Assembly (NCBI RefSeq): GCF_001647085.1
Contig: NZ_CP015520.1
Coordinates: forward strand, 1,228,219 to 1,260,218
Source of the DNA: Thermococcus piezophilus
Lineage (GTDB): Archaea; Methanobacteriota_B; Thermococci; Thermococcales; Thermococcaceae
Length of the DNA: 32,000 nucleotides
Direction: 5' to 3'
Shown here: positions 3,213 to 30,519 of the stretch, piece by piece
Layout: the number at the start of each line of letters is the position of its first letter
Position numbering within the stretch: position 1 is the stretch's first letter
Position numbers and translations under genes: made by a program
The notes under the pieces: generated by a model
Seen by the model: only the letters and a program-made list of their open reading frames with translations
Database searches by the model: none
Told to the model about the DNA's origin: nothing

Positions 3213-4376
3213 CTAAGCTTTCGCCCAGTAGTCCTTTTCCTCCACCATCGCCCTTATCATCTCGTCTTTGTCCTTGAACATGGTTCTACGCGACGGGTTC
3301 TGCATGCCGTAAAACTCCATAAACGGACTCGGACGCCTCTCGAAGGGATAGTAGAGGTATATGGCAGCGAGCGTTCTGTAAGCTTCGGCCATTTCGCTGA
3401 TAACCCCTGCAGAGACTTCCTCCGCATAGTGATACACCGCTATCGCTTTGCTGACATCTACCAAGTTGAAGTCCCTCTCCACGAGCTGTCTTCTTAGAAT
3501 GTCGGTAGCCTGCTCTATGTCCTCCCTGTCGAGTTCCTCAACTTCCTCGCCGTCGAGCAGGTGCTTAATTTTAATCCTCCTTATGGATGGATCTTTAGCT
3601 ACTTGGTTGTCGTACTCGGCGACCACCCACCAGTCGTCGAGGGCGCCAGGGTCGAGAACCGTGAAGTGCTCGTTCAGCTTGTCGTAGAAGTCCCTGACGC
3701 GATGGTAGTACTCCTCCTCATGACCCGTCATCGGGTAGCTGAGATAAATGAGGGGCTTCTCATTCTCCCTAAAAATCAGGTTAAGGAAGACCTCGTGTGG
3801 GTGCCTTATGCCGAACTGGAGGACGTAGCGGACTTCAAGGCCTTCCTTCTTAAGCTCGTGGACGAGGGTCTTCACGTGGTTTATGGCGTCCTCACGCCAC
3901 ATGACGAGGGTTGTTAGCTTTATGTTCTCGGGGTCTTTGCCGAAGCGCTCGAACCACTCGGGGTCGTTTATTATCCTCCGCCTGACGGAGAGCACGTCGT
4001 CCAGGACAACTACCACCCGGTTTGGTCTGAGGAGCTTAAGATTGCTCGTGGTGAACCCTAGAACGCTCCCACTTCCCCAGCGGAAGAGACTGGGAGTTGA
4101 GACAAGGTGGTACTTCTTGTCGCTTTCATCTATTTCATTTCTTATTCTATTGAATGCTTCGTCCCTTATCTCGTTCATCAAATCCTGATGGCTTATTGCG
4201 AAATCTAGAACGTTCTTGCGCGTGATTTTAACGCCGAGCTCCTTGCCGACTTCCCTTATGTAGTCAAAAACGTGATAGTATACGTGGCTCCCTCCTTCGG
4301 CGAGCTTGAGGGCCTCGGTTATATATTCGTCCCTGCCGTTGAGCGGCGGGCCAGTTAAGAGTATAACTTCCTTCAT
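3213..4376 (-). CDS. Conserved hypothetical two-domain protein: an N-terminal archaeal adenylate-kinase-like fold with a degenerate P-loop, plus a C-terminal nucleoside 2-deoxyribosyltransferase-like (NDT/Rossmann-like) domain
   Basis: 387-aa ORF with a GGGGTGGT RBS before ATG 4376. The N-terminus VILLTGPPLNGRDEY parallels AdkA VVVVTGVPGVGGTT, but the Walker-A position reads GRD rather than GK[ST]. HLVSTPSLFRWGSGSVLGF...RPNRVVVVLDDVLSVRRR parallels the AdkA core. The C-terminal half has IYLSYPMTG ... AIAVYHYAEEVSAGVISEMAEAY, which resembles the NDT-like pattern (YlaGP ... D.Gt..E.G.A). Domain calls come from motif memory only. Confidence 0.8.
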   Translation of the reverse strand: MKEVILLTGPPLNGRDEYITEALKLAEGGSHVYYHVFDYIREVGKELGVKITRKNVLDFAISHQDLMNEIRDEAFNRIRNEIDESDKKYHLVSTPSLFRWGSGSVLGFTTSNLKLLRPNRVVVVLDDVLSVRRRIINDPEWFERFGKDPENIKLTTLVMWREDAINHVKTLVHELKKEGLEVRYVLQFGIRHPHEVFLNLIFRENEKPLIYLSYPMTGHEEEYYHRVRDFYDKLNEHFTVLDPGALDDWWVVAEYDNQVAKDPSIRRIKIKHLLDGEEVEELDREDIEQATDILRRQLVERDFNLVDVSKAIAVYHYAEEVSAGVISEMAEAYRTLAAIYLYYPFERRPSPFMEFYGMQNPSRRTMFKDKDEMIRAMVEEKDYWAKA

Positions 4377-4488: not shown

Positions 4489-5100
4489 TTGGATGAAAAG
4501 CTAAAAGGAACGACTACAGTCGGCATTGTATGTAAGGACGGCGTGGTGCTGGCAGCGGACAAGAGAGCGTCCCTCGGCAACATGATACTGTCCAAGGACG
4601 TCACCAAGGTATTCCAGATAGACGATCATCTTGCCCTAGCGGGTGCAGGGAACGTTGGGGATATTCTGGCTCTGGTTAGGCTTCTCCAAGCTGAGACCAG
4701 GCTTTACATGGCCAAGGTTGGAAGGGAGATGAGCGTTAAGGCACTCGCTACCCTCACTGCGAACATCCTCCACGGGAACAGATTCATGCCGTACTTTGGA
4801 TGGTTCTTAATAGCCGGCTACAATGAGGAGCCCGCGCTGTATTCTGTAGATATGGCGGGTGGTGTTACCGGGGACAAGTTCACCGCGGCTGGCTCCGGAA
4901 TGGAGCTCGCCTTTGCAGTTCTCGAGAACGAGTACAAGGATGATATGACTGTTAAAGAGGGCGTTAAGCTCGCCCTCAAGGCGATAAATATCGCCACCAG
5001 GCGCGACGTTTTCACGGGTGATGGGATAACCCTCATAACCCTAACAAAGGAGGGCTACAGAGAGCTGAGCAAAGAGGAAATAAAGACTCTTCTGAAGTGA
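4489..5100 (+). CDS. psmB: Proteasome subunit beta (20S core, Ntn-hydrolase)
   Basis: 203-aa ORF starting at TTG 4489, with an in-frame TAA immediately upstream. A short propeptide precedes the catalytic Thr run in [28 protein letters not shown]. It sits directly upstream of aCPSF1, as in other Thermococcales. Confidence 0.93.
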
Positions 5101-5101
5101 G

Positions 5102-7057
5102 GTGGTGGCTTTGATAAGGAGAGAGACCTTCGTTGATGACATTCTACGCGATATAAAAGCAGTAATTTCCCAGATGGTTCCTAAGGAGGCAAGGATTACG
5201 GACGTTGAGTTCGAGGGACCGGAGTTGGTTATTTACGTCAAGAATCCCGAGGCCATAATGCAGGACGGTGAGCTGATAAAGAACCTCGCCAAGGTGCTCA
5301 AGAAGAGGATAAGTGTGAGGCCTGATCCAGACGTTCTCCTCCCACCTGAGCGCGCGGAGGAGATGATAAAAGCTCTCGTCCTGCCTGAGGCCGAGATAAC
5401 CAACATAAGCTTTGATCCATCCGTCGGTGAGGTTCTAATAGAGGCCAAAAAGCCGGGTCTCGTCATTGGAAAGAACGGCGAGACGCTTCGTTTAATCACT
5501 CAGAAGGTTCACTGGGCGCCGCGCGTTATACGGACACCGCCCATACAGTCCCAGACGATTTACTCAATCCGGCAGATCCTTCAGACTGAGAGCAAGGACA
5601 GGAGGAAGTTCCTCAGGCAGGTGGGCAGGAACATCTACCGCAAGCCCGAGCTCAAGAGTGAGTGGATTAGAATCACGGGCCTTGGAGGCTTTCGTGAGGT
5701 TGGCAGGAGTGCGCTGCTCGTTCAGACCAACGAGAGCTACGTGCTGGTCGATTTTGGTATCAATATAGCCGCCCTCCGTGACCCAAAGAAGGCCTTCCCA
5801 CACTTCGACGCGCCCGAGTTCCGCTACGTCCTGGATGCGGGCCTTCTTGATGCCATAATCATAACCCACGCCCATCTCGACCACAGCGGTTTGCTGCCCT
5901 ACCTCTTCAGGTTCAACCTTTTCGACGGGCCGATATACACGACCCCGCCGACGAGGGACCTGATGGTGCTCCTCCAGAAGGACTTCATCGAAATCCAGCA
6001 GATGAGCGGTATGGAGCCTCTCTACAGGCCGAAGGATATCAAAGAGGTCATCAAGCACACCATAACCCTTGACTACGGTGAGGTCCGTGACATTGCCCCG
6101 GACATGAGGCTTACGCTCCACAACGCCGGCCACATTCTTGGTTCGTCCATAGTTCACCTCCACATAGGCAACGGACTGCACAACATAGCCATAACAGGCG
6201 ACTTCAAGTTCATCCCCACGAGGCTCTTCGAGCCAGCCGTGAGCAGGTTCCCCCGCCTGGAGACCCTAGTGATGGAATCGACTTACGGTGGAAGCAACGA
6301 CTACCAGATGCCGCGTGAGGAAGCCGAGAAGCGCTTGATAGAAATCATACACCAGACCATCGGGAGGAAAGGCAAGGTCTTGATTCCGTCGATGGCCGTC
6401 GGTAGAGCCCAGGAGATAATGATGGTGCTCGAGGAGTATGCGCGCGTCGGCGGCATAGACGTGCCCATTTACCTCGATGGGATGATATGGGAGGCAACCG
6501 CAATACACACGGCCTATCCGGAGTACCTCAGCAAGCACCTCCGCGAGCAGATATTCCACGAGGGCTACAACCCGTTCCTCAACCCGATATTCAAGAGCGT
6601 CGCCAACACCAGGGAGAGGCAGGACATCATAGACAGCGACGAGCCGGCGATAATTATAGCGACATCGGGCATGCTCGTTGGTGGGCCGAGCGTTGAGTAC
6701 TTCAAGCAGCTCGCTCCCGATCCGAGGAACAGCATGATATTCGTCAGCTACCAGGCAGATGGAACGCTCGGAAGGCAGGTGCAGCGCGGCCTGCGTGAGA
6801 TCCCACTGGTCGGTGAGGATGGCAGGACAGAGGTCGTTCAGGTCAACATGGAGGTTTACACCATCGATGGCTTCTCCGGTCATGCAGACAGAAGGGAGCT
6901 CATGAGCTACATTGCCCGCCTCAGGCCAAGGCCAGAGAGGGTCATCACCGTCCACGGAGAGGCACACAAGTGTCTCGACCTTTCAACGAGCATCCACAAG
7001 AAGTTCGGTCTCAGCACAAGGGCTCCGAACAACCTCGACGCGATCAGGTTGAAGTGA
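5102..7057 (+). CDS. fttA: aCPSF1/FttA: KH-domain beta-CASP metallo-beta-lactamase ribonuclease (transcription termination factor)
   Basis: 651-aa ORF. It has N-terminal KH domains (VIGKNGETLRLI), the MBL motif IITHAHLDHSG and the beta-CASP/C-terminal motifs (GFSGHADRREL, VHGE). It is near-colinear with Pyrococcus aCPSF1 as I recall it. The start lies 1 nt after the psmB stop; GTG 5102, GTG 5105 and TTG 5111 are all possible. Confidence 0.95.
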   Translation: MVALIRRETFVDDILRDIKAVISQMVPKEARITDVEFEGPELVIYVKNPEAIMQDGELIKNLAKVLKKRISVRPDPDVLLPPERAEEMIKALVLPEAEITNISFDPSVGEVLIEAKKPGLVIGKNGETLRLITQKVHWAPRVIRTPPIQSQTIYSIRQILQTESKDRRKFLRQVGRNIYRKPELKSEWIRITGLGGFREVGRSALLVQTNESYVLVDFGINIAALRDPKKAFPHFDAPEFRYVLDAGLLDAIIITHAHLDHSGLLPYLFRFNLFDGPIYTTPPTRDLMVLLQKDFIEIQQMSGMEPLYRPKDIKEVIKHTITLDYGEVRDIAPDMRLTLHNAGHILGSSIVHLHIGNGLHNIAITGDFKFIPTRLFEPAVSRFPRLETLVMESTYGGSNDYQMPREEAEKRLIEIIHQTIGRKGKVLIPSMAVGRAQEIMMVLEEYARVGGIDVPIYLDGMIWEATAIHTAYPEYLSKHLREQIFHEGYNPFLNPIFKSVANTRERQDIIDSDEPAIIIATSGMLVGGPSVEYFKQLAPDPRNSMIFVSYQADGTLGRQVQRGLREIPLVGEDGRTEVVQVNMEVYTIDGFSGHADRRELMSYIARLRPRPERVITVHGEAHKCLDLSTSIHKKFGLSTRAPNNLDAIRLK

Positions 7058-8397
7058 TGGAAATGCGGGTGAAGTGTCCCTCCTGTAGGAGGGTCTATTC
7101 CTCCCTTATTCCCCCTAAGTGCTCCTGTGGGGCGCCCTTGACCATAACCTACGACTACGAGTCCATAGACGTTTCCAAGTGGAGGAACCGTGTTAAGGGT
7201 GTCTGGCGCTATAGGGAGCTTCTTCCGGACGTCAAGGAAGTTGTGAGCCTGAGTGAAGGTGGGACTCCCCTTTTGAAGGCTAAATTGGGGGAGGAAATGG
7301 GCCTAAACGTCTTCATCAAGGACGAGACGAGGAACCCTACCGGTTCCTTTAGGGACAGGCTCGTTAGTGTGGCTGTTTCATACGGTCTGTCCTACGCTGA
7401 GAACGGTTTTGTCGTTGCCAGCAACGGAAATGCTGCAGCATCGCTTGCCGCATACGCCGCACGTGCCGGCAAGGAGGCCTATACAGTTGTCCCAAATCTT
7501 ATAGAGAAGTGCAAGCTCACTCAGATAGCGGCCTTCGGGGCAAGGATAATACGATACGGCGAGAGCGTTGACGAGGGCATAAGTTACGCCGATGGACTGG
7601 CCGAGGGCAAGGGGCTCTACAACGTCACGCCCGAGAGGAATGTAGTGGGCCTTGAGGGGCAGAAGACAATAGCCTTTGAGCTGTGGGAGGAGCTTAGCCC
7701 TACGCATGTGATAGTTCCTACGGGGAGCGGCAGCAACCTCTACAGCATCTACAAGGGCTTTAAAGAGCTCCTCACCATCAGGGCCATCGATGAAATGCCC
7801 AGGATGATAGTGGTTCAGGCTGAAAGGTGCTCGCCCATAGCGAGTGAGGTGCTTGGCATCGAGCCGAAAGCAGAGCCGACCAAAGCACTTGGGCTGTACG
7901 TAAAGAACCCGCTCACGAAGGGGCTGGCGTTGGAGGCTATACGTGAGAGCGATGGGACAGCCGTTCTCGTGGGAGATGATGAGCTCGATCTCGGTGAGAG
8001 GTTGCTCGCGAAGGAGGGCATCTTTGCGGAGTATGCATCCGCTGTTATAGTCCCAGCTCTTCTCAAGCTTGCCGAGGAGGGCTACTTTAATAGAGACGAT
8101 AGGATAGCCCTCATAGTGACGAGTTCTGGCCTTAAGGGCCATTACTCCGAGAGCAGGGAGAAATTCGCGATTGGTGGCACAAAACTGGAAATCCTTAAGC
8201 TCCTTAGCGAAAGGAGTATGTACGGCTATGAGATTTGGGAGGCCTTGGAGAAGCCCCTTAAGTATCAAGCGGTCTATCAGCATCTCAGCGAGCTGGAAAG
8301 CCTCGGTCTGATAGAGGAATCCTATCGGAAGGGGAGGCGGGTCTACTACGGCATAACCGAGAAGGGCAGGAAGTTCCTCGAGACACTCTCCGCTTAA
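7057..8397 (+). CDS. Threonine-synthase-like fold-type-II PLP-domain protein with an N-terminal zinc ribbon and a C-terminal PadR-like winged helix. Arg replaces the PLP-binding Lys.
   Basis: ATG 7057 overlaps the fttA TGA (gTGATGg). The 6970 start in the ORF track is an extension inside fttA. It has a zinc ribbon (CPSCRR...CSCG) and TS-like motifs: NPTGSFRDR (canonical NPTGSFKDR), ASNGNAAASLAAYAARAG, EGQKTIAFE and PTGSGSN. The last ~70 aa, LEILKLLSERSMYGYEIWEALEK...YQHLSELESLGLIEESYRKGRRVYYGITEKGRKFLETL, match the PadR/wHTH pattern. Confidence 0.85.
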   Translation: MEMRVKCPSCRRVYSSLIPPKCSCGAPLTITYDYESIDVSKWRNRVKGVWRYRELLPDVKEVVSLSEGGTPLLKAKLGEEMGLNVFIKDETRNPTGSFRDRLVSVAVSYGLSYAENGFVVASNGNAAASLAAYAARAGKEAYTVVPNLIEKCKLTQIAAFGARIIRYGESVDEGISYADGLAEGKGLYNVTPERNVVGLEGQKTIAFELWEELSPTHVIVPTGSGSNLYSIYKGFKELLTIRAIDEMPRMIVVQAERCSPIASEVLGIEPKAEPTKALGLYVKNPLTKGLALEAIRESDGTAVLVGDDELDLGERLLAKEGIFAEYASAVIVPALLKLAEEGYFNRDDRIALIVTSSGLKGHYSESREKFAIGGTKLEILKLLSERSMYGYEIWEALEKPLKYQAVYQHLSELESLGLIEESYRKGRRVYYGITEKGRKFLETLSA

Positions 8398-8436
8398 CGG
8401 AAAGGTTTTAAACCATCTTTTAAAAGCTAACCGTAG

Positions 8437-8790
8437 GTGAAGAACGTGGGGCTGACAGTTGAACATAAGTTTTCACTATCGGTATATCTGTGGGGACTGA
8501 TAACTGGGTTAATCAGTGGAATAGCAGCGGCAAAAGTCCAATACGGCTGGCTGCTCGGCGTTGCTCTGTACTTCGTCATCGACAAGTTCGTTCTGGCATT
8601 CATAAAGGAGCTACCGTCTGAAATTGAGGACGAAAGAATGGTGCTTAAGAGAGCCTTCTGGGGATGGTTACTATTCTGGCTCTACTTCACGATGCTCAGC
8701 TACACCGTTATGATAGACTTCCAGCCGGTGTTCTACTCGAACCAGAGCCTGCTCTATCAAATCACCCACAACGGAACGGTGACGGGGTGA
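8437..8790 (+). CDS. Small hypothetical integral membrane protein (about 3 TM segments)
   Basis: 117-aa ORF from GTG 8437 (alternative GTG 8446, possibly leaderless; TATA-like cttttaaaag at 8417-8426). Hydrophobic stretches are LWGLITGLISGIAAA, LLGVALYFVIDKFVLAFI and FWGWLLFWLYFTMLSY. Its stop lies 4 nt before the rpiA ATG. Confidence 0.65.
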   Translation: MKNVGLTVEHKFSLSVYLWGLITGLISGIAAAKVQYGWLLGVALYFVIDKFVLAFIKELPSEIEDERMVLKRAFWGWLLFWLYFTMLSYTVMIDFQPVFYSNQSLLYQITHNGTVTG

Positions 8791-8794
8791 GCAG

Positions 8795-9478
8795 ATGAAG
8801 GAGCTGAAAAGAGCGGTTGCTAAAGAGGCTTTGAAGTTCATTGAGGACGATATGATAGTGAGCCTTGGAACGGGCTCCACTACTGCCTACTTCCTCGAGT
8901 ATCTCGGCAAGCTCATAATGGAAGAGGAACTCGAAGACGTCTATGGCGTCCCGACGTCCTATCAGGCAAGACTATTGGCACTCGAGTACGGCGTTCCAGT
9001 TGTTGGCTTGGATGAAGTTGATGCCATAGACATAGCCGTTGACGGCGCCGACGAGGTTGACCTCAACCTGAATCTGATAAAGGGCCGCGGGGCAGCGCTG
9101 ACAATGGAGAAAATCGTCGAGTACCGTGCGGGAACGTTTCTCGTGCTGGTGGACGAGAGCAAGCTCGTAGAGAGGCTCGGTCAGAAGATGCCAGTGCCCA
9201 TAGAGGTCATCCCAGCCGCGTGGAGGGCCATAAAAGAGGAACTTGAGGTCTTCAACGCCACCGCCGAGCTCAGGATGGCCAGTAAGAAGGACGGACCGGT
9301 GGTCACGGAGAACGGAAACTTCCTTCTCGACGCGAGGTTCCACCGCATCGACGACCCGCTCGACCTGGAGATAGAGCTCAACAACATTCCAGGCGTGGTT
9401 GAGAACGGCATATTCGCGGATATAGCTGACATAGTCCTCGTAGGCACGAGGGAAGGCGTCAAGAGGCTCGAGCGGTGA
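8795..9478 (+). CDS. rpiA: Ribose-5-phosphate isomerase A
   Basis: 227-aa ORF with the RpiA motifs GTGSTT, DGADEVD and KGRGAALTMEK. A GGGGTGAG RBS precedes the ATG. Confidence 0.93.
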   Translation: MKELKRAVAKEALKFIEDDMIVSLGTGSTTAYFLEYLGKLIMEEELEDVYGVPTSYQARLLALEYGVPVVGLDEVDAIDIAVDGADEVDLNLNLIKGRGAALTMEKIVEYRAGTFLVLVDESKLVERLGQKMPVPIEVIPAAWRAIKEELEVFNATAELRMASKKDGPVVTENGNFLLDARFHRIDDPLDLEIELNNIPGVVENGIFADIADIVLVGTREGVKRLER

Positions 9479-9582: not shown

Positions 9583-9853
9583 ATGAAATTGTCTAAAAAT
9601 TCCAATTATTGATCCGATATATGTACAAGAGAAGCTTCAAGAACAAGGAAAGCTAAACAGATTCTTAACTCTGGTTGATAGGCTTTTGAAAAGAAAGCCT
9701 AAGAATATTGAGGATGAGGCAAAATATAGAACTAGGATGGAAATGGAAGAGTTGCTTTTAGGTACAATTGGATTAACTAATAAGGACATAAAAGAGTTTT
9801 ACGATGGACTTATCCAACTAGCAAAGTTCAGAACAGAAAAGACAAGAAAGTGA
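9583..9853 (+). pseudogene. Small hypothetical gene (about 89 codons) interrupted by a 1-nt frameshift near its 5' end
   Basis: A strong RBS GAGGTGA (9569-9575) lies 7 nt before ATG 9583, but that frame stops after 9 codons (TGA 9610-9612). The +1 frame is open from 9587 to TGA 9851-9853 (...PIIDPIYVQEKLQEQGKLNRFLTLVDRLLKRKPKNIEDEAKYRTRMEMEELLLGTIGLTNKDIKEFYDGLIQLAKFRTEKTRK). The shift would fall in or after the A5 run at 9595-9599. I recognise no homologue. Confidence 0.35.
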
Positions 9854-9970
9854 AATGCTAGGAGTATTTATATTTCCCTATATAGAGTTTGGACCATAAT
9901 ATTTTTAAATCTCTTAAGGACACACCTTTAGACGGGATATTAAAAGAGTTTTGGTGAGTCGTTGCTTTGT

Positions 9971-10058
9971 GCGGGGGTTGCCGAGCCTGGTCAAAGGCGG
10001 TGGACTCAAGATCCACTCCCGCAGGGGTTCCGGGGTTCAAATCCCCGCCCCCGCACCA
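9971..10058 (+). tRNA. tRNA-Leu (anticodon CAA), class II with a long variable arm and a genomically encoded CCA
   Basis: Hand-folded. Acceptor stem GCGGGGG/CCCCCGC; D arm GCC-GAGCCTGGTCAAA-GGC; anticodon stem GTGGA/TCCAC with loop CTCAAGA (anticodon CAA). The variable arm is TCCCGCAGGGGTTC and the T arm is CGGGG-TTCAAAT-CCCCG. The discriminator is A, followed by CCA. No intron. Confidence 0.93.
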
Positions 10059-10300
10059 TTCCGTCATTAGTTATAACAAAAGACTGATAATGTATCAAAC
10101 TGTATAACGAATAGTCCAATTGTATCTAGAGCAATTCTTCCATTTTATAGTTCCATACAGGATATATCATTACAGAATTCGTTAGTATAAGTATCTTCAG
10201 TTGATTTCTCTCCATTACTAAGATTCACGATAGTTTTACTGTCTTCAAATATTAAAAGTCATAAAGTTTGTTAATAACCATAGAAGATAAAGCTTCAGAA

Positions 10301-11249
10301 CTACATCTCCATTCTTTTGAACAAGTTCAATCTTGTTAATTTGTTGGTATTACTACATAATTCTGCCTCAATTTTCATTTTAAGCACTCTCAGCATAGAA
10401 TATTGGGCTATCTCATAATCTTCACAATAAATTGCATAGTTTTTTAGTTCTATTTCAAGATCTGGTTCTTTTTTCTCTGTTTTTTGACTCAACTTAAAAA
10501 CCTTGACAAGTTTAAAGGTCAAATCCTTTGTACCCTCTTTATGATTATTGTTTTTGCTTCTAACTCTTTTGTAAACTCCACATTTCTCAAAGATTAACCT
10601 AGTCGAGTCTGCATTAACACTTTTTTGAGTTTATGAACAGTTGTCTTCTTTTTGTTCCATTTCATTAGCCAAGTATCCAAATTAAAACTCGGTAAGCGTT
10701 GATCCAGAATGTAGAGTTTCTCTCCAATTTTAACACCTACAGCAACATGACCAAAAATGTAATAAAGTAAATTTCAGGATAAATATTCGGCAGAGAGATG
10801 CAGTAAATCTTGCATGGTCTCTGCATACTGCTAGTTTGTACTTCAGGACTTTGTTGATGGTAGACTTGGTCGAATGATGTCTATAAAATATCCAAATAGT
10901 TTTGCTAATTTTGATAATTTCGATTTTTCATATCTTCACAAAGGTCGATAACTAATTATTAAGTATATAATCACAAAGAAAGGCAATGTGATAAACAATA
11001 AAGCTGGAATTAAACAACCACAAGAACAACGAATAATATAATCTAGATTCCTAAAACTCATGATACTATCCATCTTTCTGTCGGGTATCTTATGTTCTTG
11101 TCTTCCCATTCTAAGATATTAACTAATGTTTCTTTCTCAGAATCTCCTTTTAGTTGATTTACTAATCTCTGTATTTTTATGTTATCTATCTCTCCCAGTG
11201 TTGGACAAAATTCTCTTTTGATCTCTGTAATTTTTGAGAGTATTGACAT
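10301..11249 (-). pseudogene. Decayed gene, possibly a transglutaminase-like cysteine peptidase with TM segment(s)
   Basis: ATG 11249 follows a GTGATGGA RBS 30 nt after the upstream gene. Frame 1 gives MSILSK...TLVNILEWEDKNIRYPTERWIVS* (63 aa). Coding-like sequence then continues in other frames with extra stops: a TM-like GCLIPALLFITLPFFVIIYLIISY, then KYKLAVCRDHARFTASL (a C-R-D-x-A transglutaminase-core-like motif). Next come GHVAVGVKIGEKLYILDQRLP... and finally ORF 10301..10522 with its start-less upstream extension. There are at least 4 frame breaks plus at least one in-frame TGA. Confidence 0.35.
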
Positions 11250-11279
11250 AATCCATCACAAATCTTAATTGTCAGATGG

Positions 11280-12171
11280 TTAACTAAGCAATATTTCCAA
11301 AATCTGTGTTTTTATATCTCTATCCTTAGAGATATTGTCTAAAGCTTTTAATTCTACATTATATCCGTGGCTTTCGAATTTTGTTTTTAGGCTTTCAAGT
11401 ATACTCTCGTACCTCTTGAGTTGCTCCTTGAAGCGTTTATGCTTATCATTGAAGCGTTTATGCTTATCATTGAAGCGTTTATGCTTATCATTGAAGCGTT
11501 TATGCTTATCATTGAAGCGTTTATGCTTACCTGATTTTACTTCGCTTATGGAGATCATAAGGTGTTTTGGAGAGAATCCGATTACCAGAATATCTAATTC
11601 AGCTTGTACTTCTTTTTCTTTTATTAATTTGGTATCTAACGCTATCAAATACCATTCAAATTTCTTCTTTGTCTATATAATGTCGTAGTATATCAAGTAG
11701 ATGATACTGCTCTGCATATTCTCCTTTTTCTAGTTTGGTTTCAGGTAAACTTTCAAACTGTTTTAAATATAAGTTCAAATACTCTGAAGTAACAAAAGAT
11801 GGAATCGGTAACGTGAAAGAAAATAATTGAAATATCAATTTCAACATCTTTAATGGAAATTTAAGTAGAGACTCACTAGATAAAGACAGAGGCCGTAATT
11901 TTTTCGTTGCACAAGTACTTCGTTACCAAATATTTTTCTAAAATGCGACTAGCAAGCTTAGACGACTCAAATAGCCCTTTTTCAAGGAATTTTCTTTTTA
12001 AGCTCATTTGTGAAAGTGTTCCATAAAAGCCTTTCCTCTTCTTTTATTAAAAATAACAAGAGGCAAGTACAAAATTTTAGATATCCTCAGTAAATAATAT
12101 ATCTTATTAAGAGGATTATCTTCTTGAATTAAGATTGGATAGATGAATATCTGATAGTCTTTACTTGCCAT
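11280..12171 (-). pseudogene. NERD-like PD-(D/E)xK nuclease-domain gene (about 297 codons) broken by three frame changes and carrying an internal 7-aa tandem repeat
   Basis: Four colinear pieces lie on the minus strand. (1) ATG 12171 MASKDYQIFIYPILIQEDNPLNKIYYLLRISKILYLPLVIFN... (2) ...KKRKGFYGTLSQMSLKRKFLEKGLFESSKLASRILEKYLVTKYLCNEKITASVFI*. (3) ...SESLLKFPLKMLKLIF...LEKGEYAEQYHLLDILRHYIDKEEI* (ORF 11656..11847). (4) WYLIALDTKLIKEKEVQAELDILVIGFSPKHLMISISEVKSGKHKRF... (ORF 11280..11648). The pattern GE..(n)..ELDILVI..(n)..ISEVKSG matches the NERD/PD-(D/E)xK layout (E-I-D-hhhh ... hhh-E-V-K-x-x-G). The frame junctions coincide with A/T homopolymer-rich spots. Confidence 0.45.
11429..11529. repeat. 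Perfect 21-bp tandem repeat, 4.8 copies (unit tgaagcgtttatgcttatcat)
   Basis: Units start at 11429, 11450, 11471 and 11492 (all identical) and at 11513 (first 17 nt identical). The repeat is in frame on the minus strand and encodes (KHKRFND)x4 + KHKRFKE immediately after the EVKSG motif of the NERD-like ORF. Confidence 0.97.
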
Positions 12172-12242
12172 ATTGTACAATATCGTTCATGGAATAATAA
12201 ATTTAACGTAGCTCCGAAGGAAAAAGGCAGAAAGGAGAGATG

Positions 12243-21622: not shown

Positions 21623-24600
21623 ATGAACAAAAAGGCTCTGAGCCTTTTAGTCGCGGTAGTGATGTTACTCTCTGCGATCCCAGCGACAGTATCAGTGCTA
21701 GCAGTAACGACGACTTCAGTACATCAGTCTGAGAGCCCCCAGCAGATCGAGGTGGAGAAGCCCAGCAATTTCATACCTGGGGAAGTTCTTCAGAAGGAAA
21801 TCCAGAAGGTTCTGGAAAGCAGAGGTAAGACGGTGCGCCTCATAGTGGCACCGGATAGGGATCACAGGACTGAGGTTTACAACGCCCTCAAGAGCCTTGG
21901 TAAGATTGACCCCATCAGCAAACCTGAGCTGCAGTTCATAGTTGTTGAAATGCCAGTTTCCAACGTTGAAAAGCTCGCTGAAATACCCGGAATACTCCAC
22001 GTCTGGAAGGACGAGATGGTCAAGCTCGAGGAGCCCGTCGCACCTGAGGCAGGGGCAGGAGATGTTTCTCCAGATGCCAGCTTCCCCACTCACCCGGACA
22101 TGTTCATGAGCATCTTCACGATTCACGCTTACGACACATGGGTTAATTATGGTGTCCTCGGAGACAATGTCACCGTTGCCGTTCTTGACACTGGAATTGA
22201 CGTCGGCCACCCGTTCCTCCAGGTCACCCTCGATGGAAGGCCTAAGATTGTGAACATATACGACGCCAGTGACGAGGGGCTCGCGGAGATATACTACTCC
22301 ACCAACACCACGTCTAGTGGCTACATAACAGTCGATAAGAACGTCACCCTGTTCTGGGGTGTTTATGCGCAGTACTACGGCCACGATGCATATTACACGA
22401 ACTACACCATGGGAACCTATTACATCGGCAACATAACAGGTGACATGTACTATATAGGACTCCTCCCGGAGAGGTACTTTGACTTGAACTTTGATGGTGA
22501 TAAGAACGATGTTTACCCGATTCTCGTCGTTGACAACAATGGCACTTACACCGCATACATGGATATCAACATGAACAATAACTTTACTGATGATACTGGG
22601 GTTGGCCTCTATACTGAGACAGGGGAGTACTTCACCTTCAACACCAGCCTCGTTAACGTTGCGTTTGCCGAGTTCATGGCTCCAGACTACGCAATGTTCA
22701 TGTGGGACGCTCACGGTCACGGAACTCACGTCAGCGGTACCGTTGCCGGCGTTGGCCTTCCAGACGACCCGGTTTTCAGCGGTGTGTATGGAGTTGCCCC
22801 CAACGCCCAGCTCATGGAGGTCAAGGTTCTTCCGGGTGAGTTTGGATTTGGAAGGACTAGCTGGATAATCAACGGAATGATATACGCCACCCTCAACGGT
22901 GCGGACGTCATAAGCATGTCCCTAGGTGGTGGAGGCGAGATAAACGACGGTATAGAGAGCCCGGAGAACTTCTACGTTAACCTGCTAACCGACCGGTACG
23001 GTGTTACATTTGCCATAGCCGCAGGAAACGAGGGCCCGACCACCAACACCGTCCACTCACCTGGTGACAGCGACCTCGCCATAACCGTCGGCAACTACGT
23101 AGACAACGAGAGGGAGTCATTCTGGTACGGGGTTGATATGGGCATAATCTCTGGTCCAGCTATGAGCTCCAGCAGGGGACCGAGGGACGACGGTATGCTC
23201 GACCCCGACGTCATGGCTCCGGGTACCGACATATTCTCGAGCCTGCCGATGTGGTATACTATCGTTTACAACGACTCCAACAGATACTATGGAATATGGA
23301 GCGGTACCTCAATGGCCACTCCGCATGTCAGCGGTGCCGTTGCCCTAATGATTAGCTACGCCAAGCAGCACAACCTGACCTATGATCCCATAATGATAAA
23401 GCGCGCCCTCGAACTCAGCGCCAAGCCCGTCAATGGGACCCTTATAGATCAGGGCTTCGGCCTCATACAGGTGGATAAGGCCATCGAGGAGCTTGAGAAG
23501 CTCAGCCAGGAGCCGACCACCTACATCTTCGCCGGAACCACCTACACCGGCTTCAAGAACCCGATAGGCGTTCCGATGATCCCGATATCACAGGCCTATG
23601 TGGACTTCAACGGCTACTTCCAGAACGCCTTTGGCTTCCCGTACCTTTACAGGGGAGTCTACATAAGGAACGAGTATCCGGGAAGCGTTCCGATATACTT
23701 CTCACCGCTCGTCTATGAGCCAGGTTGGGGACTCCGGTACGTCTTCGAGAACAAGACCTACAGGATAAGCACCAACGTTAATTGGATCATTCCCAACACC
23801 ACAGAGGTCACGATCAACGGCGCCAGTGCTCAGAGCATAGACGACCTCATAGGACAGTTCTCAATTAACATCGACTACTCCAAGCTCCAGAAGAGTGGAA
23901 CATACGTTGGACTCGTTTACATCGACGACCCCGACACTAGCTACATCGACGGTTACATAGCTGTCACCGTCGACATTCCTGTGAACCCAAACGGTGAAAG
24001 CTATGCCAGGCTCTTCGACACCGAGAATCCTGGAGAAGCCAAGCACTACTTCGTTAAGGTTCCGCGCGCACCAAGGAGCTCCGCGTCACCCTCCGCATCG
24101 CAACCGACGCCGAGGGCAACCCGATTGGCAGAACGACCCTTTTCATCGCTAGGCCACTCGGTGAGGTCGTTGCTGCCTATGTCCCAGACTACTACTACGT
24201 CGGAGCCAACTCTGCCGGAAACGTCTACGAGTACACCTGGGTCATTCCCAACCCGATCGAGGGCACCTGGGAGATAACTGCCTACTCTAGTATATTCACC
24301 AAGTACCTCAGCGGCTACGACACTTCCCAGTACGAGATTGAGGTCAGCCTGACCTCAGTTTCCATCGAGCCTGAGCTCATACTCAAGGACGTTGCCCAGT
24401 CCTCAAACGTCACTGTCAAGGCCACCGTGAGCAACGACTACGATGACTTCAACGCCAGTGCCGTCGGCTATGGTGTTGGCAGGCTGGACGAGGCAGACGC
24501 CATGATCAGGGAAGTCAACCAGAGCGACTGGGATATTGTAGGTGCAGTGGAGGTCACCAGCTCTGACTACTACATCAAGTTCGGAATCACCCAGCCAGAA

Positions 24601-25872
24601 GACCCGAACGCTGACCTTGATCTGTACATATTCTACTTCCCGACTTACGAGGACCTAATGAACTTCACAAACTACACCCTCTACGATGAGCAGGTAGGCC
24701 CAACCTCCGACGAGGTATTTGAGAAGTTTATGCCAGAGCCGGGCTATTACTTCATCGCGGTTTACGGCTACGACACAGTTAACTACAATCCAATCCAGTA
24801 CGTCTTCTACTACCAGATACTCGGCGATAACGGCAACATCAGCGTTGATAGTACTCCGTTTACATTCACAGAAGGCACCAGCAAGACTATAAAAGCCACT
24901 GTAGAACTCAACAACTATGGAACTTACCTCGGAGTCATGGGTCTCGTCGATTCTGACACTGGTGAGGCTCTCACCTACGCGCCTATGATATTCCAAGTGG
25001 GCAGTCCAGAGATGTTTGTGGCAGTCTATTCAGAGGCCACGCTTGGCAAGCAGTCGGTGCTTAAGATTAAGCTCCTTGACCTTGCCACTATGCAGCTGAT
25101 AAACGCTCCAGCCAAAGTCATCGTGAACGGCAGGGAGTACTACACTGACAACGGTGAAGTGGATGTTTACTTCGTCCCACTTAAGTTTGAAGAGACCTTC
25201 AATATATACGTCATCAGTGACTACTACATGGACTACTCCGGAACATTTACGGTCAAAGTGAATGAACTCGCTGGCAATGAGGTTTACGATGCTACCCATA
25301 TAAAACCATACATCGCCACGGGACTTGGCAGTGTAACCAAGATCAATGTTTCGGACAGCGGCACGATGATAGGGATTACCGCTGAAGGCCCCAGCGGTAC
25401 GATTGGATATCTCCTAGTCACCCTTCCAGGTGACACCCAGTACGTCAAGGTCGCCGGCGATCATGTGCTCGAGTACTATATCCTTGAGGGCCAGAATGCA
25501 GTCTACACTATTGTCAAGGTCAGGTACGCATCCCCAGTTACAGTCACCATCGAGTACAAGACTGCCCGCTACATCGTCAGCACCTGGAACTACGTCTGGT
25601 ACATGCTCTACTGGAGGTACGACCAGAAGTTCGACCCACTCTACCAGAAGGCCGTCGAACTCGGTGTTGACAACGAGACCCTTCAAGAGGCCATGCGCTA
25701 CAAGGAGCTCGCCGACGAGTACTACGCAGAGGCAAAGAAGTACATGAACCCGTACAGAGAGAACCTCGCCGTTGCGGCACTTCCGTACGTCAGGAAGGCC
25801 TATCTCAACATCTTCAAGGCCTACACACTGCTCGAGGAGGCAGTTAACGAGATTGAAGGTTCCGAGGGCTGA
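21623..25872 (+). pseudogene. Pyrolysin-like subtilisin-family (S8) extracellular serine protease, about 1416 codons, interrupted by a 1-nt frameshift near 24062-24069
   Basis: AGGAGGTG RBS, ATG 21623 and signal peptide MNKKALSLLVAVVMLLSAIPATVSVLA. The catalytic residues are Asp in VAVLDTGID, His in HGHGTHVSGTVAG (with a long Asp-His insert, as in pyrolysin), Asn in AAGNEGP and Ser in SGTSMATPHVSG. After ...HYFVKVP, the ORF 21623..24277 frame becomes Ser/Pro/Arg-rich nonsense. The other frame is open from 24058 and reads ...TKELRVTLRIATDAEGNPIGRTTLFIARPLGEVV..., running into ORF 24427..25872 with no start codon before 24427. Confidence 0.88.
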
Positions 25873-30070: not shown

Positions 30071-30194
30071 TTTCTCACCTTGAGGCCTTCGGGAGTCGCT
30101 TTCGGTTTAAAAAGATTTGTGACGCGGAGACGGCTATGATGTCCGGAATTGTTCATTGAATATGTGTGGAAGAAACGACAAAAGAAGAAAACCC

Positions 30195-30473: not shown

Positions 30474-30519
30474 TTATGCCAAAAAGCTTAAATCCTCTTT
30501 CATATGTAAGATTCACTGT

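What the first reader, a model, noticed from the sequence alone, without database searches (positions are those of the whole stretch)
7057..8397. Threonine-synthase-like protein lacking the PLP lysine (NPTGSFRDR) and fused to a C-terminal PadR-like wHTH: candidate sensor or regulator pseudoenzyme
The body of the protein is clearly threonine-synthase-like: a zinc ribbon, ASNGNAAASLAAYAARAG, EGQKTIAFE and PTGSGSN. However, the codon at the Schiff-base lysine position is AGG (Arg) within ggt tcc ttt agg gac agg (about 7343-7360). The last ~70 residues form a PadR/ArsR-type winged helix (MYGYEIWEALEK...YQHLSELESLGLIEESYRKGRRVYYGITEKGRKFLETL). A fold-type-II PLP scaffold without its lysine, joined to a DNA-binding domain, suggests a metabolite-sensing transcription factor rather than an enzyme. 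This is loosely analogous to MocR/GabR regulators, which use a fold-type-I domain and an N-terminal HTH. The gene is translationally coupled to fttA. Caveat: Lys to Arg is a single A-to-G transition, and this window contains other apparent sequence lesions.
Basis: partly seen in the sequence, partly recalled or inferred. Interest (0 to 1): 0.7.

Follow-up and report, generated by a model that had tools for sequence, protein, structure and literature searches.

The report
Lysine-less threonine-synthase-like archaeal gene regulator
A gene that databases call threonine synthase lacks the enzyme's catalytic lysine and is fused to a DNA-binding domain; it belongs to an archaea-wide family that, in other phyla, most likely senses vitamin B6 and controls B6 uptake and synthesis genes.

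Summary
Window 7057-8397 encodes a 446-aa protein with three parts: a zinc ribbon, a threonine-synthase (ThrC) fold, and a C-terminal PadR-type winged helix (wHTH). Arg (AGG, 7351-7353) occupies the Schiff-base lysine position.

Arg is found in 116 of 119 close homologues. Among 150 cluster representatives, all 73 unfused relatives keep Lys. The roughly 75 fused proteins carry R, L, I, V, T, M and others, and only 2 keep Lys. On the enzyme-domain columns alone, the fused proteins form one clade. [quoted passage not shown]

New evidence points to vitamin B6. In Bathyarchaeia, Odinarchaeia, other Asgard archaea and Desulfurococcales, 51 of 70 fused genes sit beside a membrane protein. Its only match among solved structures is the pyridoxamine transporter PdxU2/HmpT. 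An 18-bp palindrome (core AGTT-N2-AACT) marks that gene's promoter. In a Baldrarchaeia contig the fused gene directly precedes pdxS-pdxT.

My reading is a non-catalytic, probably B6-sensing transcription factor. It is functionally analogous to bacterial PdxR/MocR but built from different parts. In Thermococcales, the window's lineage, neither target nor operator was found. Databases name the family "threonine synthase", which is probably wrong.

The parts
7057..8397 (+). ThrC-like/PadR fusion gene (446 aa plus stop). It is a predicted non-catalytic, ligand-sensing transcription factor.
   Evidence: Searches cover the ORF, the Pfam PALP and PadR hits, and a full-length match to NCBIfam NF004170. 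One search gives the AF2 model (pLDDT 89.5).
7075..7128 (+). N-terminal four-cysteine zinc ribbon (C7, C10, C22, C24).
   Evidence: Three of the four Cys (C10, C22, C24) are invariant in alignments A1 and A2; C7 is invariant in A1 and at least 90% conserved in A2. The ribbon is also present in the nearest Lys-bearing unfused relatives.
7243..8121 (+). Fold-type-II PLP-enzyme domain with a threonine-synthase fold (residues 63-355).
   Evidence: Pfam PALP, E 1.5e-65. Foldseek's best matches are ThrC structures 6NMX and 1V7C, TM-score 0.84-0.85 normalised by target length.
7351..7353 (+). AGG codon for Arg99, at the position of the Schiff-base lysine (T. thermophilus ThrC Lys61).
   Evidence: Arg is present in 116 of 119 close homologues. 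Among the roughly 75 fused representatives only 2 have Lys, whereas 73 of 73 unfused ones do (Fisher p = 1.2e-40). Arg is encoded by both AGR and CGN codons.
8131..8175 (+). Flexible linker between the sensor domain and the DNA-binding domain (residues 359-373).
   Evidence: This is the only segment with pLDDT below 50 in the AF2 model.
8176..8391 (+). PadR-type winged helix-turn-helix. Helices span residues 374-385, 390-397 and 403-415 (the recognition helix, AVYQHL). The wing is the hairpin 419-433 and the C-terminal helix is 435-445.
   Evidence: Pfam PadR scores above its gathering cutoff. Secondary structure comes from the AF2 model. The best PDB sequence matches are PadR regulators. A405, Q408, H409 and L413 are invariant.
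5102..7057 (+). fttA (aCPSF1-type termination factor). Its stop codon overlaps the start of the fusion gene.
   Evidence: Pfam KH_TffA, Lactamase_B, Beta-Casp and RMMBL. The order psmB-fttA-fusion gene is conserved in Thermococcus and Pyrococcus loci but not in Palaeococcus.
4489..5100 (+). psmB (proteasome beta subunit), the first gene of the apparent psmB-fttA-regulator unit.
   Evidence: Pfam Proteasome, E 9.6e-56. Synteny is shown.
8398..8436 (+). Intergenic, promoter-like region immediately after the regulator gene. It has BRE/TATA-like elements (AAAGGTTTTAAA and CTTTTAAAAG) that form an imperfect inverted repeat. It does not contain the cross-phylum operator motif.
   Evidence: The window has no AGTTNNAACT site. 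The inverted repeat is only partly conserved in other Thermococcus loci.
8437..8790 (+). Small membrane ORF restricted to the genus Thermococcus. It occupies the slot that the PdxU2-like gene holds in other phyla. It is a candidate target, but unproven.
   Evidence: It is conserved downstream in loci L008-L012. All 35 homologue clusters are from Thermococcus and have no Pfam match. hhalign finds no homology to the ECF-S family.
8795..9478 (+). rpiA (ribose-5-phosphate isomerase A), 4 nt after the small ORF. Its product is a PdxS substrate; this is a lead only.
   Evidence: Pfam Rib_5-P_isom_A, E 2.1e-64. That PdxS uses ribose 5-phosphate is stated in PMC9997740.

Best explanation
The gene encodes a non-catalytic descendant of a zinc-ribbon ThrC-like PLP enzyme. 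It works as a ligand-sensing transcription factor, probably as a dimer, because both ThrC and PadR proteins dimerise.

The sensor domain keeps the cofactor pocket but has lost the Schiff-base lysine and ThrC's substrate-phosphate site. It therefore most likely binds a phosphorylated vitamin-B6 form reversibly rather than covalently. PLP is the most likely ligand; PMP or PNP are possible. A 15-residue flexible linker connects the sensor to a PadR-type wHTH.

In most lineages of the family, the wHTH is inferred to bind an 18-bp palindrome with core AGTT-N2-AACT. The palindrome lies between the TATA-like box and the start codon of a PdxU2-like B6 importer gene. In Baldrarchaeia the regulator gene directly precedes pdxS-pdxT. 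That position suggests the protein represses these genes when B6 is plentiful.

Shown here: the domain architecture, the loss of Lys and its coupling to the fusion, conservation of the pocket, the conserved neighbours, and the conserved palindrome. Inferred: DNA binding, the identity of the ligand, and the sign of regulation.

For the Thermococcales protein in this window, the regulator role is well supported. Its target genes are unknown.
For: Architecture. PALP plus PadR by Pfam. The AF2 model has two confident domains joined by a disordered linker. The fold is ThrC and the C-terminus matches PadR regulators.

Loss of lysine.
- Arg99 aligns with the Schiff-base Lys of four solved ThrCs.
- Arg is present in 116 of 119 close homologues.
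- In the top 150 hits from a search of 1.84 billion cluster representatives, all 73 unfused proteins have Lys. The fused ones have L18, I17, R16, V6, T5, M4, F2, S, Y, A, N and only 2 K. Fisher p = 1.2e-40.
- Arg is encoded by AGG, AGA, CGA, CGT and CGC.
- The 99 fused proteins form one clade in a neighbour-joining tree built from enzyme-domain columns only.

Pocket.
- N93, P94, T95, S97, D100, R101, G124, N125, G223, G225, E325, T355, G358, L359 and K360 are invariant in the fused family.
- Of 70 positions conserved in the nearest Lys-bearing relatives, only the Lys and one other column are lost.
- ThrC substrate-phosphate residues are replaced: T88 to A126, N154 to T191, S155 to E193, R160 to G198.

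Regulon.
- 51 of 70 fused loci have a PF07155 membrane gene next door, with a median gap of 60 nt. By group: Bathyarchaeia and other Thermoproteota or unclassified 38 of 49, Odinarchaeia 2 of 2, other Asgard 7 of 7, Desulfurococcales 4 of 4.
- A profile of that neighbour hits a single PDB sequence, 4HZU chain S (HmpT/PdxU2), at E 7.7e-24. The residues at its pocket positions E41, Y120, N140 and Q143 are conserved.
- The substrate of HmpT/PdxU2 is pyridoxamine (PMC4860826). PF07155 is the family of PdxU and PdxU2 (PMC9997740).
- The palindrome lies 3-48 nt before that gene's start in 28 of 53 upstream regions by a strict score, against 35 of 5000 random windows.
- It follows the importer's promoter when the importer is on the opposite strand or divergently transcribed.
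- Of 120 metagenome stretches with the exact Bathyarchaeia-type palindrome, 50 carry the importer and 47 carry the regulator.
- In a Baldrarchaeia contig, the regulator gene is followed after 44 nt by PdxS and PdxT. Both score above the NCBIfam cutoffs.
Against: In the window's own order, Thermococcales, 0 of 5 loci have the importer. The window has no AGTTNNAACT site, no pdxST and no ECF-S gene. Downstream genes also differ between genera: a small membrane ORF plus rpiA in Thermococcus, pyrH in Pyrococcus, and a phosphoribosyltransferase in Palaeococcus.

Some family members have no B6 gene nearby (L088; the 417-aa Methanomicrobia-like type).

Some fused clades keep Lys and still have the importer and the operator. 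Loss of Lys is therefore not required for the regulatory role.

The importer's substrate is inferred from one distant homologue. Two of its six pocket residues differ (H84 to K, Q87 to E).

The pdxST link rests on one locus; the tool reported two further similar places that were not shown.

No binding or expression data exist. The tree is neighbour-joining without support values.
Confidence: 0.6

Rival explanations
1. The protein senses an amino acid or related metabolite, such as threonine, O-phosphohomoserine or a sulfur amino acid. The ligand would form a stable external aldimine with non-covalently bound PLP, as GabR does with GABA. The regulator would then control amino-acid metabolism or transport rather than B6 homeostasis.
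For: The pocket is almost fully conserved relative to the nearest Lys-bearing enzymes. This includes the S-x-G-N loop, which binds the substrate carboxylate in ThrC (my own knowledge of the structure). Some family members keep Lys. Thermococcales loci show no B6 genes nearby.
Against: The conserved neighbours across four lineages are a PdxU2-like importer and, in one case, pdxST. None is an amino-acid gene. The positions that hold ThrC's substrate phosphate have become hydrophobic in the fused family: L, M or F at 126 and L or F at 198.
Confidence: 0.15
2. The ligand belongs to the thiamine branch, for example hydroxymethylpyrimidine phosphate (HMP-P), which resembles PLP but has no aldehyde. 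The neighbouring transporter would import HMP, and the adjacent AIRS-family protein would be a ThiL-like kinase.
For: The 4HZU S component was first named HmpT and thought to carry HMP (PMC4860826). In 26 loci the importer is accompanied by an AIRS/AIRS_C protein with sub-threshold similarity to ThiL (94 bits against a cutoff of 184). A ligand without an aldehyde would explain why the Lys is dispensable.
Against: Mass spectrometry identified pyridoxamine as the HmpT substrate. The AIRS protein scores higher against HypE (134 bits) than ThiL, and below the cutoff for both. The Baldrarchaeia neighbours are PdxS and PdxT, not thiamine genes.
Confidence: 0.1
3. In Thermococcales the protein is still a DNA-binding pseudoenzyme, but it has been re-purposed. 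It would regulate something unrelated to B6, perhaps connected with the psmB-fttA unit it is co-transcribed with, or with the downstream small membrane ORF and rpiA.
For: The psmB-fttA-regulator order is conserved in Thermococcus and Pyrococcus, with overlaps or gaps of at most about 20 nt. There is no importer, no operator motif and no pdxST in the window. The first residues of the recognition helix differ: KYQ here, TRA or SLQ in Bathyarchaeia and Odinarchaeia.
Against: The pocket residues and the AVYQHL core of the recognition helix are invariant between Thermococcales and the B6-linked clades. Thermococcales sequences nest inside the R/K subclade of the family. Only 32 kb of this genome was visible, so distant targets such as pdxST could not be examined.
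Confidence: 0.2
4. It is a working enzyme, either threonine synthase as annotated or another PLP-dependent activity, that happens to carry a DNA-binding tail.
For: The protein matches NCBIfam NF004170 'threonine synthase' (equivalog) at 756 bits, and sources name its homologues threonine synthase. The ThrC fold and most of the PLP-pocket residues are retained.
Against: The Schiff-base and catalytic lysine is absent. The position holds chemically unrelated residues across the family. ThrC's substrate-phosphate residues are replaced. The protein scores below the cutoffs of the general thrC models (TIGR00260, 140.9 against 167.1). NF004170 spans the wHTH, so it describes this fused family itself and is not evidence of activity.
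Confidence: 0.04
5. The Arg codon is a sequencing or assembly error, or the gene is a decaying pseudogene.
For: Lys to Arg (AAG to AGG) is a single transition. Palaeococcus orthologues have Lys (AAA).
Against: An identical protein is on record with 3 contigs. Arg occurs in 116 of 119 homologues across several phyla, and some use CGN codons. Full-length orthologues at 64-89% identity occur across Thermococcales genera.
Confidence: 0.01

Closest known systems
MocR-family regulators (GabR, and especially PdxR, the PLP-responsive regulator of pdxST in Gram-positive bacteria)
   Same: Both use a PLP-enzyme-derived domain as the sensor of a transcription factor. PdxR, like this family, is encoded next to pdxST or B6 transport genes and recognises sites at their promoters (PMC5320631 abstract; PMC9997740).
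   Different: MocR proteins have an N-terminal GntR-type wHTH joined to a fold-type-I aminotransferase domain, keep the PLP lysine, and are bacterial. This family has a fold-type-II ThrC domain with a zinc ribbon, a C-terminal PadR-type wHTH, usually no lysine, and is archaeal. The two are analogous, not homologous.
Threonine synthase (ThrC; solved structures 1UIM/1V7C, 2ZSJ, 2D1F, 6CGQ)
   Same: The fold is the same (Foldseek TM-score about 0.84 normalised by target length, 32-35% identity). So are the NPTGSF-x-DR motif, the S-x-G-N loop, the glycine-rich phosphate loop and the T-G-x-G-L-K motif.
   Different: The Schiff-base Lys is replaced. The substrate-phosphate residues T88, N154, S155 and R160 (T. 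thermophilus numbering) are replaced. A wHTH has been added at the C-terminus. The protein scores below the cutoffs of the general thrC models.
PadR-family transcription regulators (e.g. PDB 5DYM, 9QBC, 3L7W)
   Same: The winged HTH is followed by a C-terminal helix. Pfam PadR scores above its gathering cutoff. A palindromic operator is consistent with binding by a dimer.
   Different: Classical PadR proteins are small stand-alone proteins of about 110-180 aa. Here the domain is the C-terminal module of a 446-aa protein that has an enzyme-derived sensor.
Archaeal ThiR (thiamine regulator with a ThiN-derived sensor domain); from my own knowledge, not checked here
   Same: It is an archaeal vitamin regulator built by fusing a DNA-binding domain to a catalytically disabled copy of an enzyme that handles the same cofactor. 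It represses transporter and biosynthesis genes through palindromic operators at their promoters.
   Different: The enzyme fold (ThiN), the DNA-binding domain and the vitamin are all different. There is no sequence relationship.

Membership tests
Threonine synthase (ThrC, EC 4.2.3.1) | A Schiff-base and catalytic lysine in the N-P-T-G-S-F-K-D-R motif | tested here: not met
   Arg99 (AGG, 7351-7353) aligns with Lys61 of T. thermophilus ThrC and with the equivalent Lys of three other solved ThrCs.
Threonine synthase (ThrC, EC 4.2.3.1) | Residues that hold the phosphate of O-phosphohomoserine: T88, N154, S155 and R160 in T. thermophilus. Their roles are from my own recollection of the 1V7C literature; the numbering was verified. 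| tested here: not met
   They map to A126, T191, E193 and G198. In the fused family, position 126 is mostly L, M or F and position 198 is mostly L, F, S or T.
Threonine synthase (ThrC, EC 4.2.3.1) | A score above the curated cutoff of the general thrC models | tested here: not met
   TIGR00260 scores 140.9 against a cutoff of 167.1, and NF006050 scores 233.9 against 303. Only NF004170, whose 442-position profile spans the wHTH and therefore models this fused family itself, is passed (756 against 421).
Threonine synthase (ThrC, EC 4.2.3.1) | A fold-type-II PLP-enzyme fold of the ThrC type | tested here: met
   Pfam PALP, E 1.5e-65. Foldseek's best hits are all ThrC structures, E about 1e-28.
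PLP-binding proteins of fold type II | Non-covalent cofactor contacts: the glycine-rich phosphate loop, an Asn to O3', and a Ser or Thr to the ring nitrogen (general knowledge of the fold) | tested here: met
   G223 and G225 of the G223-x-G225-x-x loop, N125, and T355 are conserved; G223, G225 and T355 are invariant and N125 is conserved in 65 of 75 representatives. Actual binding of PLP cannot be tested with these tools.
PadR-family transcription regulators | A PadR-type winged HTH domain | tested here: met
   Pfam PF03551 scores 40.8 bits against a cutoff of 27. The AF2 model has a wHTH topology with pLDDT about 85-93. The best PDB sequence hits are PadR regulators.
PadR-family transcription regulators | Sequence-specific binding to a palindromic operator | not testable with these tools
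   There is indirect support only. A conserved 18-bp palindrome lies at the promoter of the neighbouring gene in four archaeal lineages. None was found in the window.
MocR/GabR/PdxR regulators | An N-terminal GntR-type wHTH joined to a fold-type-I aminotransferase-like domain that retains the PLP lysine | tested here: not met
   Here the DNA-binding domain is C-terminal and of PadR type, the sensor is fold type II, and the lysine is absent. The protein works like a MocR regulator but is not a member of that family.
Vitamin-B6 regulon transcription factor (functional class, as PdxR) | Conserved linkage to B6 uptake or synthesis genes, with a shared operator at their promoters | tested here: met
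   For the family, 51 of 70 loci lie beside a PdxU2-like gene, with the palindrome at that gene's promoter, and pdxS-pdxT follow the regulator in a Baldrarchaeia contig. For the window's own lineage the test is not met: 0 of 5 Thermococcales loci, and no motif in the window.

The most novel reading that the evidence does not exclude
This would be the first vitamin-B6-sensing transcription factor family described in archaea. An ancestral zinc-ribbon ThrC-like enzyme fused once to a PadR wHTH and then repeatedly lost its Schiff-base lysine. The cofactor pocket thereby changed from a covalent PLP site into a reversible PLP gauge. The gauge represses a PdxU2-type importer and pdxST through an AGTT-N2-AACT palindrome. 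In Thermococcus and Pyrococcus the gene is co-transcribed with the proteasome beta subunit and the termination factor FttA, so B6 status there may feed into a different, still unknown regulon.
Probability: 0.45. Interest if true: 0.8.

Novelty: new variant of a known kind. Interest (0 to 1): 0.72.

Why it matters
1. Annotation. A family found across Thermococcales, Bathyarchaeia, Desulfurococcales, Methanomicrobia-like lineages and Asgard archaea is named "threonine synthase" by NCBIfam and by sequence sources. That name is very likely wrong, and metabolic reconstructions that credit these organisms with threonine synthesis through this gene would be misled.

2. Biology. The papers searched describe B6 regulators only in bacteria (PdxR/MocR), and a 2023 survey calls B6 transport poorly studied. 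This family offers a concrete archaeal regulator, operator and target set that can be tested directly.

3. Evolution. It is a clear case of an enzyme becoming a sensor. The fusion and the loss of the catalytic lysine are almost perfectly correlated, and the replacement residue is free to vary. It arrived at the same solution as bacterial MocR regulators, from a different fold and a different DNA-binding domain.

4. Application. A PLP pocket that binds its cofactor reversibly, coupled to a DNA-binding output, is a natural starting point for a B6 biosensor that would work at high temperature.

Tried and rejected
- Sequencing error or pseudogene. Rejected on the evidence.
- Homology between the small downstream ORF (8437-8790) and the ECF-S/PdxU2-like family. 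hhalign gave probability 0.4%. No ECF-S-like ORF exists anywhere in the window.
- The cross-phylum operator in the window and in Thermococcales loci. AGTTNNAACT has 0 matches. A looser pattern gave 6 matches against 2.9 expected, none at a promoter. One AGT-N4-ACT match at 8464 lies inside the conserved HKFSL codons of the small ORF and is not conserved at the DNA level, so I treated it as chance.
- The inverted repeat at 8397-8434. It coincides with BRE/TATA-like elements, and its right arm is not conserved in L008 or L012. I did not accept it as an operator.
- A PdxU2-like importer in Thermococcales, searched with the A3 profile. The best 120 hits were all of Bathyarchaeia type, so this gave no information.
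- Homologues of the small ORF. They occur only in Thermococcus, are all hypothetical and have no Pfam match.
- Literature. Ten full-text searches combined threonine synthase, PadR, wHTH, archaea, B6 and pseudoenzyme terms. No paper on this fusion turned up. One paper ID was not held.
- Extra regulon members from the metagenome palindrome scan. Sites away from the regulator-importer junction lie next to unrelated genes (ClpB, KARI, peptidase M1 and others) and look like chance matches. One lies 41 nt upstream of a NagD-like HAD hydrolase in L173, whose origin is unclear.
- The AIRS/AIRS_C neighbour. It scores below the cutoffs for HypE, ThiL and SelD, so its function is unassigned.

Full report
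1. THE OBSERVATION

The + strand ORF ending at 8397 is best started at the ATG at 7057. This ATG overlaps the TGA stop of the upstream gene in the sequence TGATG. The upstream gene is fttA, identified by Pfam KH_TffA, Beta-Casp and RMMBL.

The 446-aa product has a Pfam PALP domain at residues 63-355 (E 1.5e-65). It also has a PadR domain at 379-442 (E 2.2e-10; 40.8 bits against a cutoff of 27) and a weaker ArsR-type hit. Codon 99 is AGG at 7351-7353.

In HMMER alignments to the four closest solved structures, all of them threonine synthases, this Arg sits exactly opposite the Schiff-base lysine of the FKDR motif. That lysine is Lys61 in T. thermophilus ThrC.

An AlphaFold2 model built from a 77-sequence alignment is confident (mean pLDDT 89.5). 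It shows a ThrC-like body, a disordered linker at 359-373, and then helix, helix, recognition helix, beta-hairpin wing and C-terminal helix. Foldseek's best PDB matches are all ThrC. The last 74 residues match solved PadR regulators best.

2. NOT AN ERROR, AND NOT LOCAL

An identical protein (P0001) is on record with 3 contigs. Of the 120 best homologues, 119 cover the motif. Of these, 116 have Arg, two have Lys (both Palaeococcus) and one has Ser. The homologues come from Thermococcus, Pyrococcus, Palaeococcus, Bathyarchaeia, Odinarchaeum, Promethearchaeota and Methanomicrobia-like MAGs, and nearly all carry PALP plus PadR.

In the fetched genomic loci, the Arg is encoded by AGG (24), AGA (19), CGA (5), CGT (2) and CGC (2). 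A single A-to-G slip cannot explain that spread.

3. LOSS OF THE LYSINE GOES WITH THE FUSION

I searched 1.84 billion cluster representatives (50% identity) and aligned the best 150 hits. All 73 proteins without the C-terminal wHTH have Lys. The roughly 75 with the wHTH have Leu 18, Ile 17, Arg 16, Val 6, Thr 5, Met 4, Phe 2, and one each of Ser, Tyr, Ala and Asn. Only 2 have Lys. Fisher's exact test gives p = 1.2e-40.

I built a neighbour-joining tree from enzyme-domain columns only and rooted it on an unfused sequence. All 99 fused proteins form one clade. It has two halves. One carries R or K (with a few S, F, Y and T) and contains the Thermococcales. The other carries hydrophobic residues and is largely Asgard.

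The genome scan also showed fused clades that keep Lys, in some Bathyarchaeia and in Promethearchaeia, Hermod- and Hodarchaeota. The Palaeococcus Lys forms nest inside the Arg-bearing Thermococcales.

So the conserved feature is not arginine. The family no longer needs the lysine, and the position drifts.

4. WHAT IS KEPT AND WHAT IS LOST IN THE POCKET

Of 70 positions that are at least 80% conserved in the nearest Lys-bearing relatives, only two are lost in the fused family. One is the lysine; the other is a Thr in the T-x-A-T-A-I region.

These features are invariant or nearly so:
- the flanks of the motif (N93, P94, T95, S97, D100, R101);
- the S-x-G-N loop (G124, N125);
- the glycine-rich loop (G223, G225);
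- E325;
- T355-x-x-G358-L359-K360.

From general knowledge of fold-type-II enzymes, these are the contacts to the phosphate, the O3' and the ring nitrogen of PLP.

By contrast, the residues that I recall holding the substrate phosphate in T. thermophilus ThrC (T88, N154, S155, R160) map to A126, T191, E193 and G198. Positions 126 and 198 are mostly hydrophobic across the fused family.

The protein also falls below the curated cutoffs of the general thrC models. It passes only NF004170, whose profile spans the wHTH and so describes this family itself.

This is a cofactor pocket without the chemistry of threonine synthase.

5. WHAT IT SITS NEXT TO

A scan of one genome per GTDB species returned 80 loci. 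Together with loci fetched earlier and the window, 70 carry the fused form.

In 51 of these 70, a membrane-protein gene of Pfam family PF07155 lies next to the regulator gene. It is usually directly downstream on the same strand, with a median gap of 60 nt. The counts by group are:

| Group | Loci with the PF07155 neighbour |
|---|---|
| Bathyarchaeia and other Thermoproteota or unclassified | 38 of 49 |
| Odinarchaeia | 2 of 2 |
| Other Asgard | 7 of 7 |
| Desulfurococcales | 4 of 4 |
| Thermococcales | 0 of 5 |
| 417-aa Methanomicrobia-like type | 0 of 3 |

Three further loci from the hydrophobic half of the family were examined. One has the same neighbour transcribed divergently. One has it abutting the regulator upstream. 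One has no such neighbour.

A profile of 24 of these neighbours matches exactly one sequence in the whole PDB, even at E up to 10. It is chain S of 4HZU, at E 7.7e-24. That protein is the Lactobacillus brevis S component first called HmpT and now PdxU2. Mass spectrometry showed that its bound substrate is pyridoxamine (PMC4860826). A 2023 survey lists PF07155 as the family of both PdxU and PdxU2 (PMC9997740).

PMC4860826 highlights six pocket residues. The archaeal proteins keep an acidic residue at E41 and keep Y120, N140 and Q143 with identical spacing. H84 and Q87 are replaced by an invariant Lys and Glu.

In a Baldrarchaeia contig, a family member with Leu at the lysine site is followed after 44 nt by two genes. 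They pass the NCBIfam equivalog cutoffs for PdxS (480 bits against 395) and PdxT (218 against 106). These are the two subunits of PLP synthase.

6. A CONSERVED OPERATOR

The short spacer between the regulator gene and the importer gene contains a striking palindrome just after a TATA-like element. Its forms are:

| Lineage | Palindrome |
|---|---|
| Bathyarchaeia | GTATAGTT-NN-AACTATAC (often two copies) |
| Promethearchaeia, Hermod- and Hodarchaeota | TATAAGTT-NN-AACTTATA |
| Desulfurococcaceae | ATAAAGTTTAAACTTTAT |
| Odinarchaeia | CAAGTATAAACTTG |

The shared core is AGTT-N2-AACT.

By a strict score, 28 of 53 importer upstream regions have such a site 3-48 nt before the start codon. Only 35 of 5000 random 150-nt windows from the same loci do. 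Most of the other upstream regions have a weaker version.

Where the importer is encoded on the opposite strand, tail to tail with the regulator, the palindromes lie about 655-685 nt beyond the regulator's stop codon. That places them at the importer's promoter, not at the regulator's 3' end. In the divergent arrangement, a related palindrome (TATAAGCTATAGCCTATA) lies in the shared intergenic region.

As an independent check, I scanned the metagenome collection for the exact Bathyarchaeia-type palindrome. The scan returned 120 stretches. Fifty carry the importer and 47 carry the regulator, and in 44 the site lies within 120 nt upstream of the importer ORF. The remaining sites are next to unrelated genes and look like chance matches in a very large database.

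A site between the TATA box and the start codon is where archaeal repressors usually act. The sign of regulation is nevertheless an inference.

7. MECHANISM I COMMIT TO

The protein is a dimeric transcription factor. Its ThrC-derived domain binds a phosphorylated B6 form reversibly, because there is no lysine to form the aldimine. Ligand occupancy is passed through the flexible linker to the PadR wHTH pair.

In most lineages, the wHTH pair occupies the palindrome at the promoter of a PdxU2-like importer. In at least one lineage the regulator is encoded with pdxST. The protein shuts these genes down when B6 is sufficient.

This is what bacterial PdxR (MocR family) does. It is achieved here with a different enzyme fold, a different DNA-binding domain, the opposite domain order, and usually no lysine.

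Shown: the architecture, the coupling of lysine loss to the fusion, the conserved pocket, the conserved neighbours and the palindrome. Inferred: DNA binding, the ligand and the direction of regulation.

8. THE WEAK POINT: THE WINDOW'S OWN LINEAGE

In Thermococcus the gene order is psmB, fttA, regulator, a small membrane ORF, rpiA. Pyrococcus keeps psmB-fttA-regulator but has pyrH downstream. In Palaeococcus the gene follows polyamine-synthesis genes.

The small ORF (8437-8790) occurs only in Thermococcus, has no Pfam match and shows no similarity to the importer family. The window contains no importer-like ORF, no pdxST and no AGTT-N2-AACT site.

The 39-nt spacer after the regulator gene has promoter-like BRE/TATA elements in an imperfect inverted repeat, but its right arm is not conserved in related loci.

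The recognition-helix core (AVYQHL) is invariant across the family, but the three residues before it differ between Thermococcales and the B6-linked clades.

For this particular protein I am confident that it is a non-enzymatic regulator. I am only moderately confident that B6 is the signal. Its targets are unknown. One lead is that rpiA, two genes downstream, makes ribose 5-phosphate, a PdxS substrate. That could equally be coincidence.

9. RIVALS

- An amino-acid sensor working through a PLP external aldimine, in the manner of GabR, remains possible, especially for clades that keep Lys. The neighbours argue against it.
- A thiamine-precursor (HMP-P) sensor would explain why the lysine is dispensable, and would fit the weak ThiL-like similarity of the AIRS-family neighbour. 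The pyridoxamine result for HmpT and the pdxST linkage argue against it.
- A working enzyme and a sequencing artefact are both effectively excluded.

10. NOVELTY

Ten full-text searches found no paper on this fusion. The B6 literature I read names only bacterial regulators. The library does not include most subscription journals, so I cannot exclude an earlier description.

The idea of a PLP-enzyme-derived sensor in a transcription factor is known from MocR. I therefore rate this as a new variant of a known kind. It also has a practical consequence: a widely propagated annotation as threonine synthase is probably wrong.

Noticed in passing
window 9600-12200 (tRNA-Leu at 9971-10058): A low-GC island (30-36% GC, against about 50% on either side) with only short ORFs, and tRNA-Leu(CAA) near its left edge. 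It looks like an integrated element or its remnant.
   Followed up: no
window 8437-8790: A small membrane ORF of 117 aa with a conserved C-terminal YSNQSLLY motif. It is found only in the genus Thermococcus and has no Pfam or NCBIfam match. It lies 4 nt upstream of rpiA and probably shares a promoter with it.
   Followed up: partly
loci L002-L005, L014, L021, L029 and others (26 loci), e.g. L002:8235-9251; also L090:3355-4368: An AIRS/AIRS_C (PurM-superfamily) protein accompanies the PdxU2-like importer in 26 loci, directly downstream in most. It scores below the cutoffs for HypE (134 bits), ThiL (94 bits) and SelD. It may be an unrecognised ATP-dependent step linked to the imported compound.
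   Followed up: partly
L173:989-1826: An exact copy of the Bathyarchaeia-type palindrome lies 41 nt upstream of a NagD-like HAD hydrolase (Pfam Hydrolase_6 plus Hydrolase_like). From my own knowledge, that group includes pyridoxal phosphatases. It is a single instance and the organism is unclear.
   Followed up: partly
window 5102-7059; L008, L009, L010, L093: The order psmB-fttA-regulator is conserved in Thermococcus and Pyrococcus, with a 1-nt overlap here and gaps of 4-20 nt elsewhere. An essential termination factor therefore appears to be co-transcribed with a metabolite-sensing regulator. Palaeococcus lacks this linkage.
   Followed up: partly
L009:8425-9447 and L010:8424-9347 (minus strand): In one Thermococci subgroup, a Lys-bearing cysteine-synthase-like gene of fold type II (motif NPTGSVKDR) lies just beyond rpiA on the opposite strand. 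It is a second PALP gene close to the regulator. L088 also has a second PALP gene nearby.
   Followed up: no
window 3213-4376 (minus strand), 24427-25872 and 30166-31311: Three long ORFs (387, 481 and 381 aa) have no Pfam hit at E <= 1e-5. The first is transcribed divergently from psmB.
   Followed up: no
P0235 and P0255 (614-622 aa): Two Lys-bearing ThrC-like representatives carry a different C-terminal extension of about 230 aa instead of the wHTH. This is another, unexamined fusion in the same enzyme neighbourhood.
   Followed up: no
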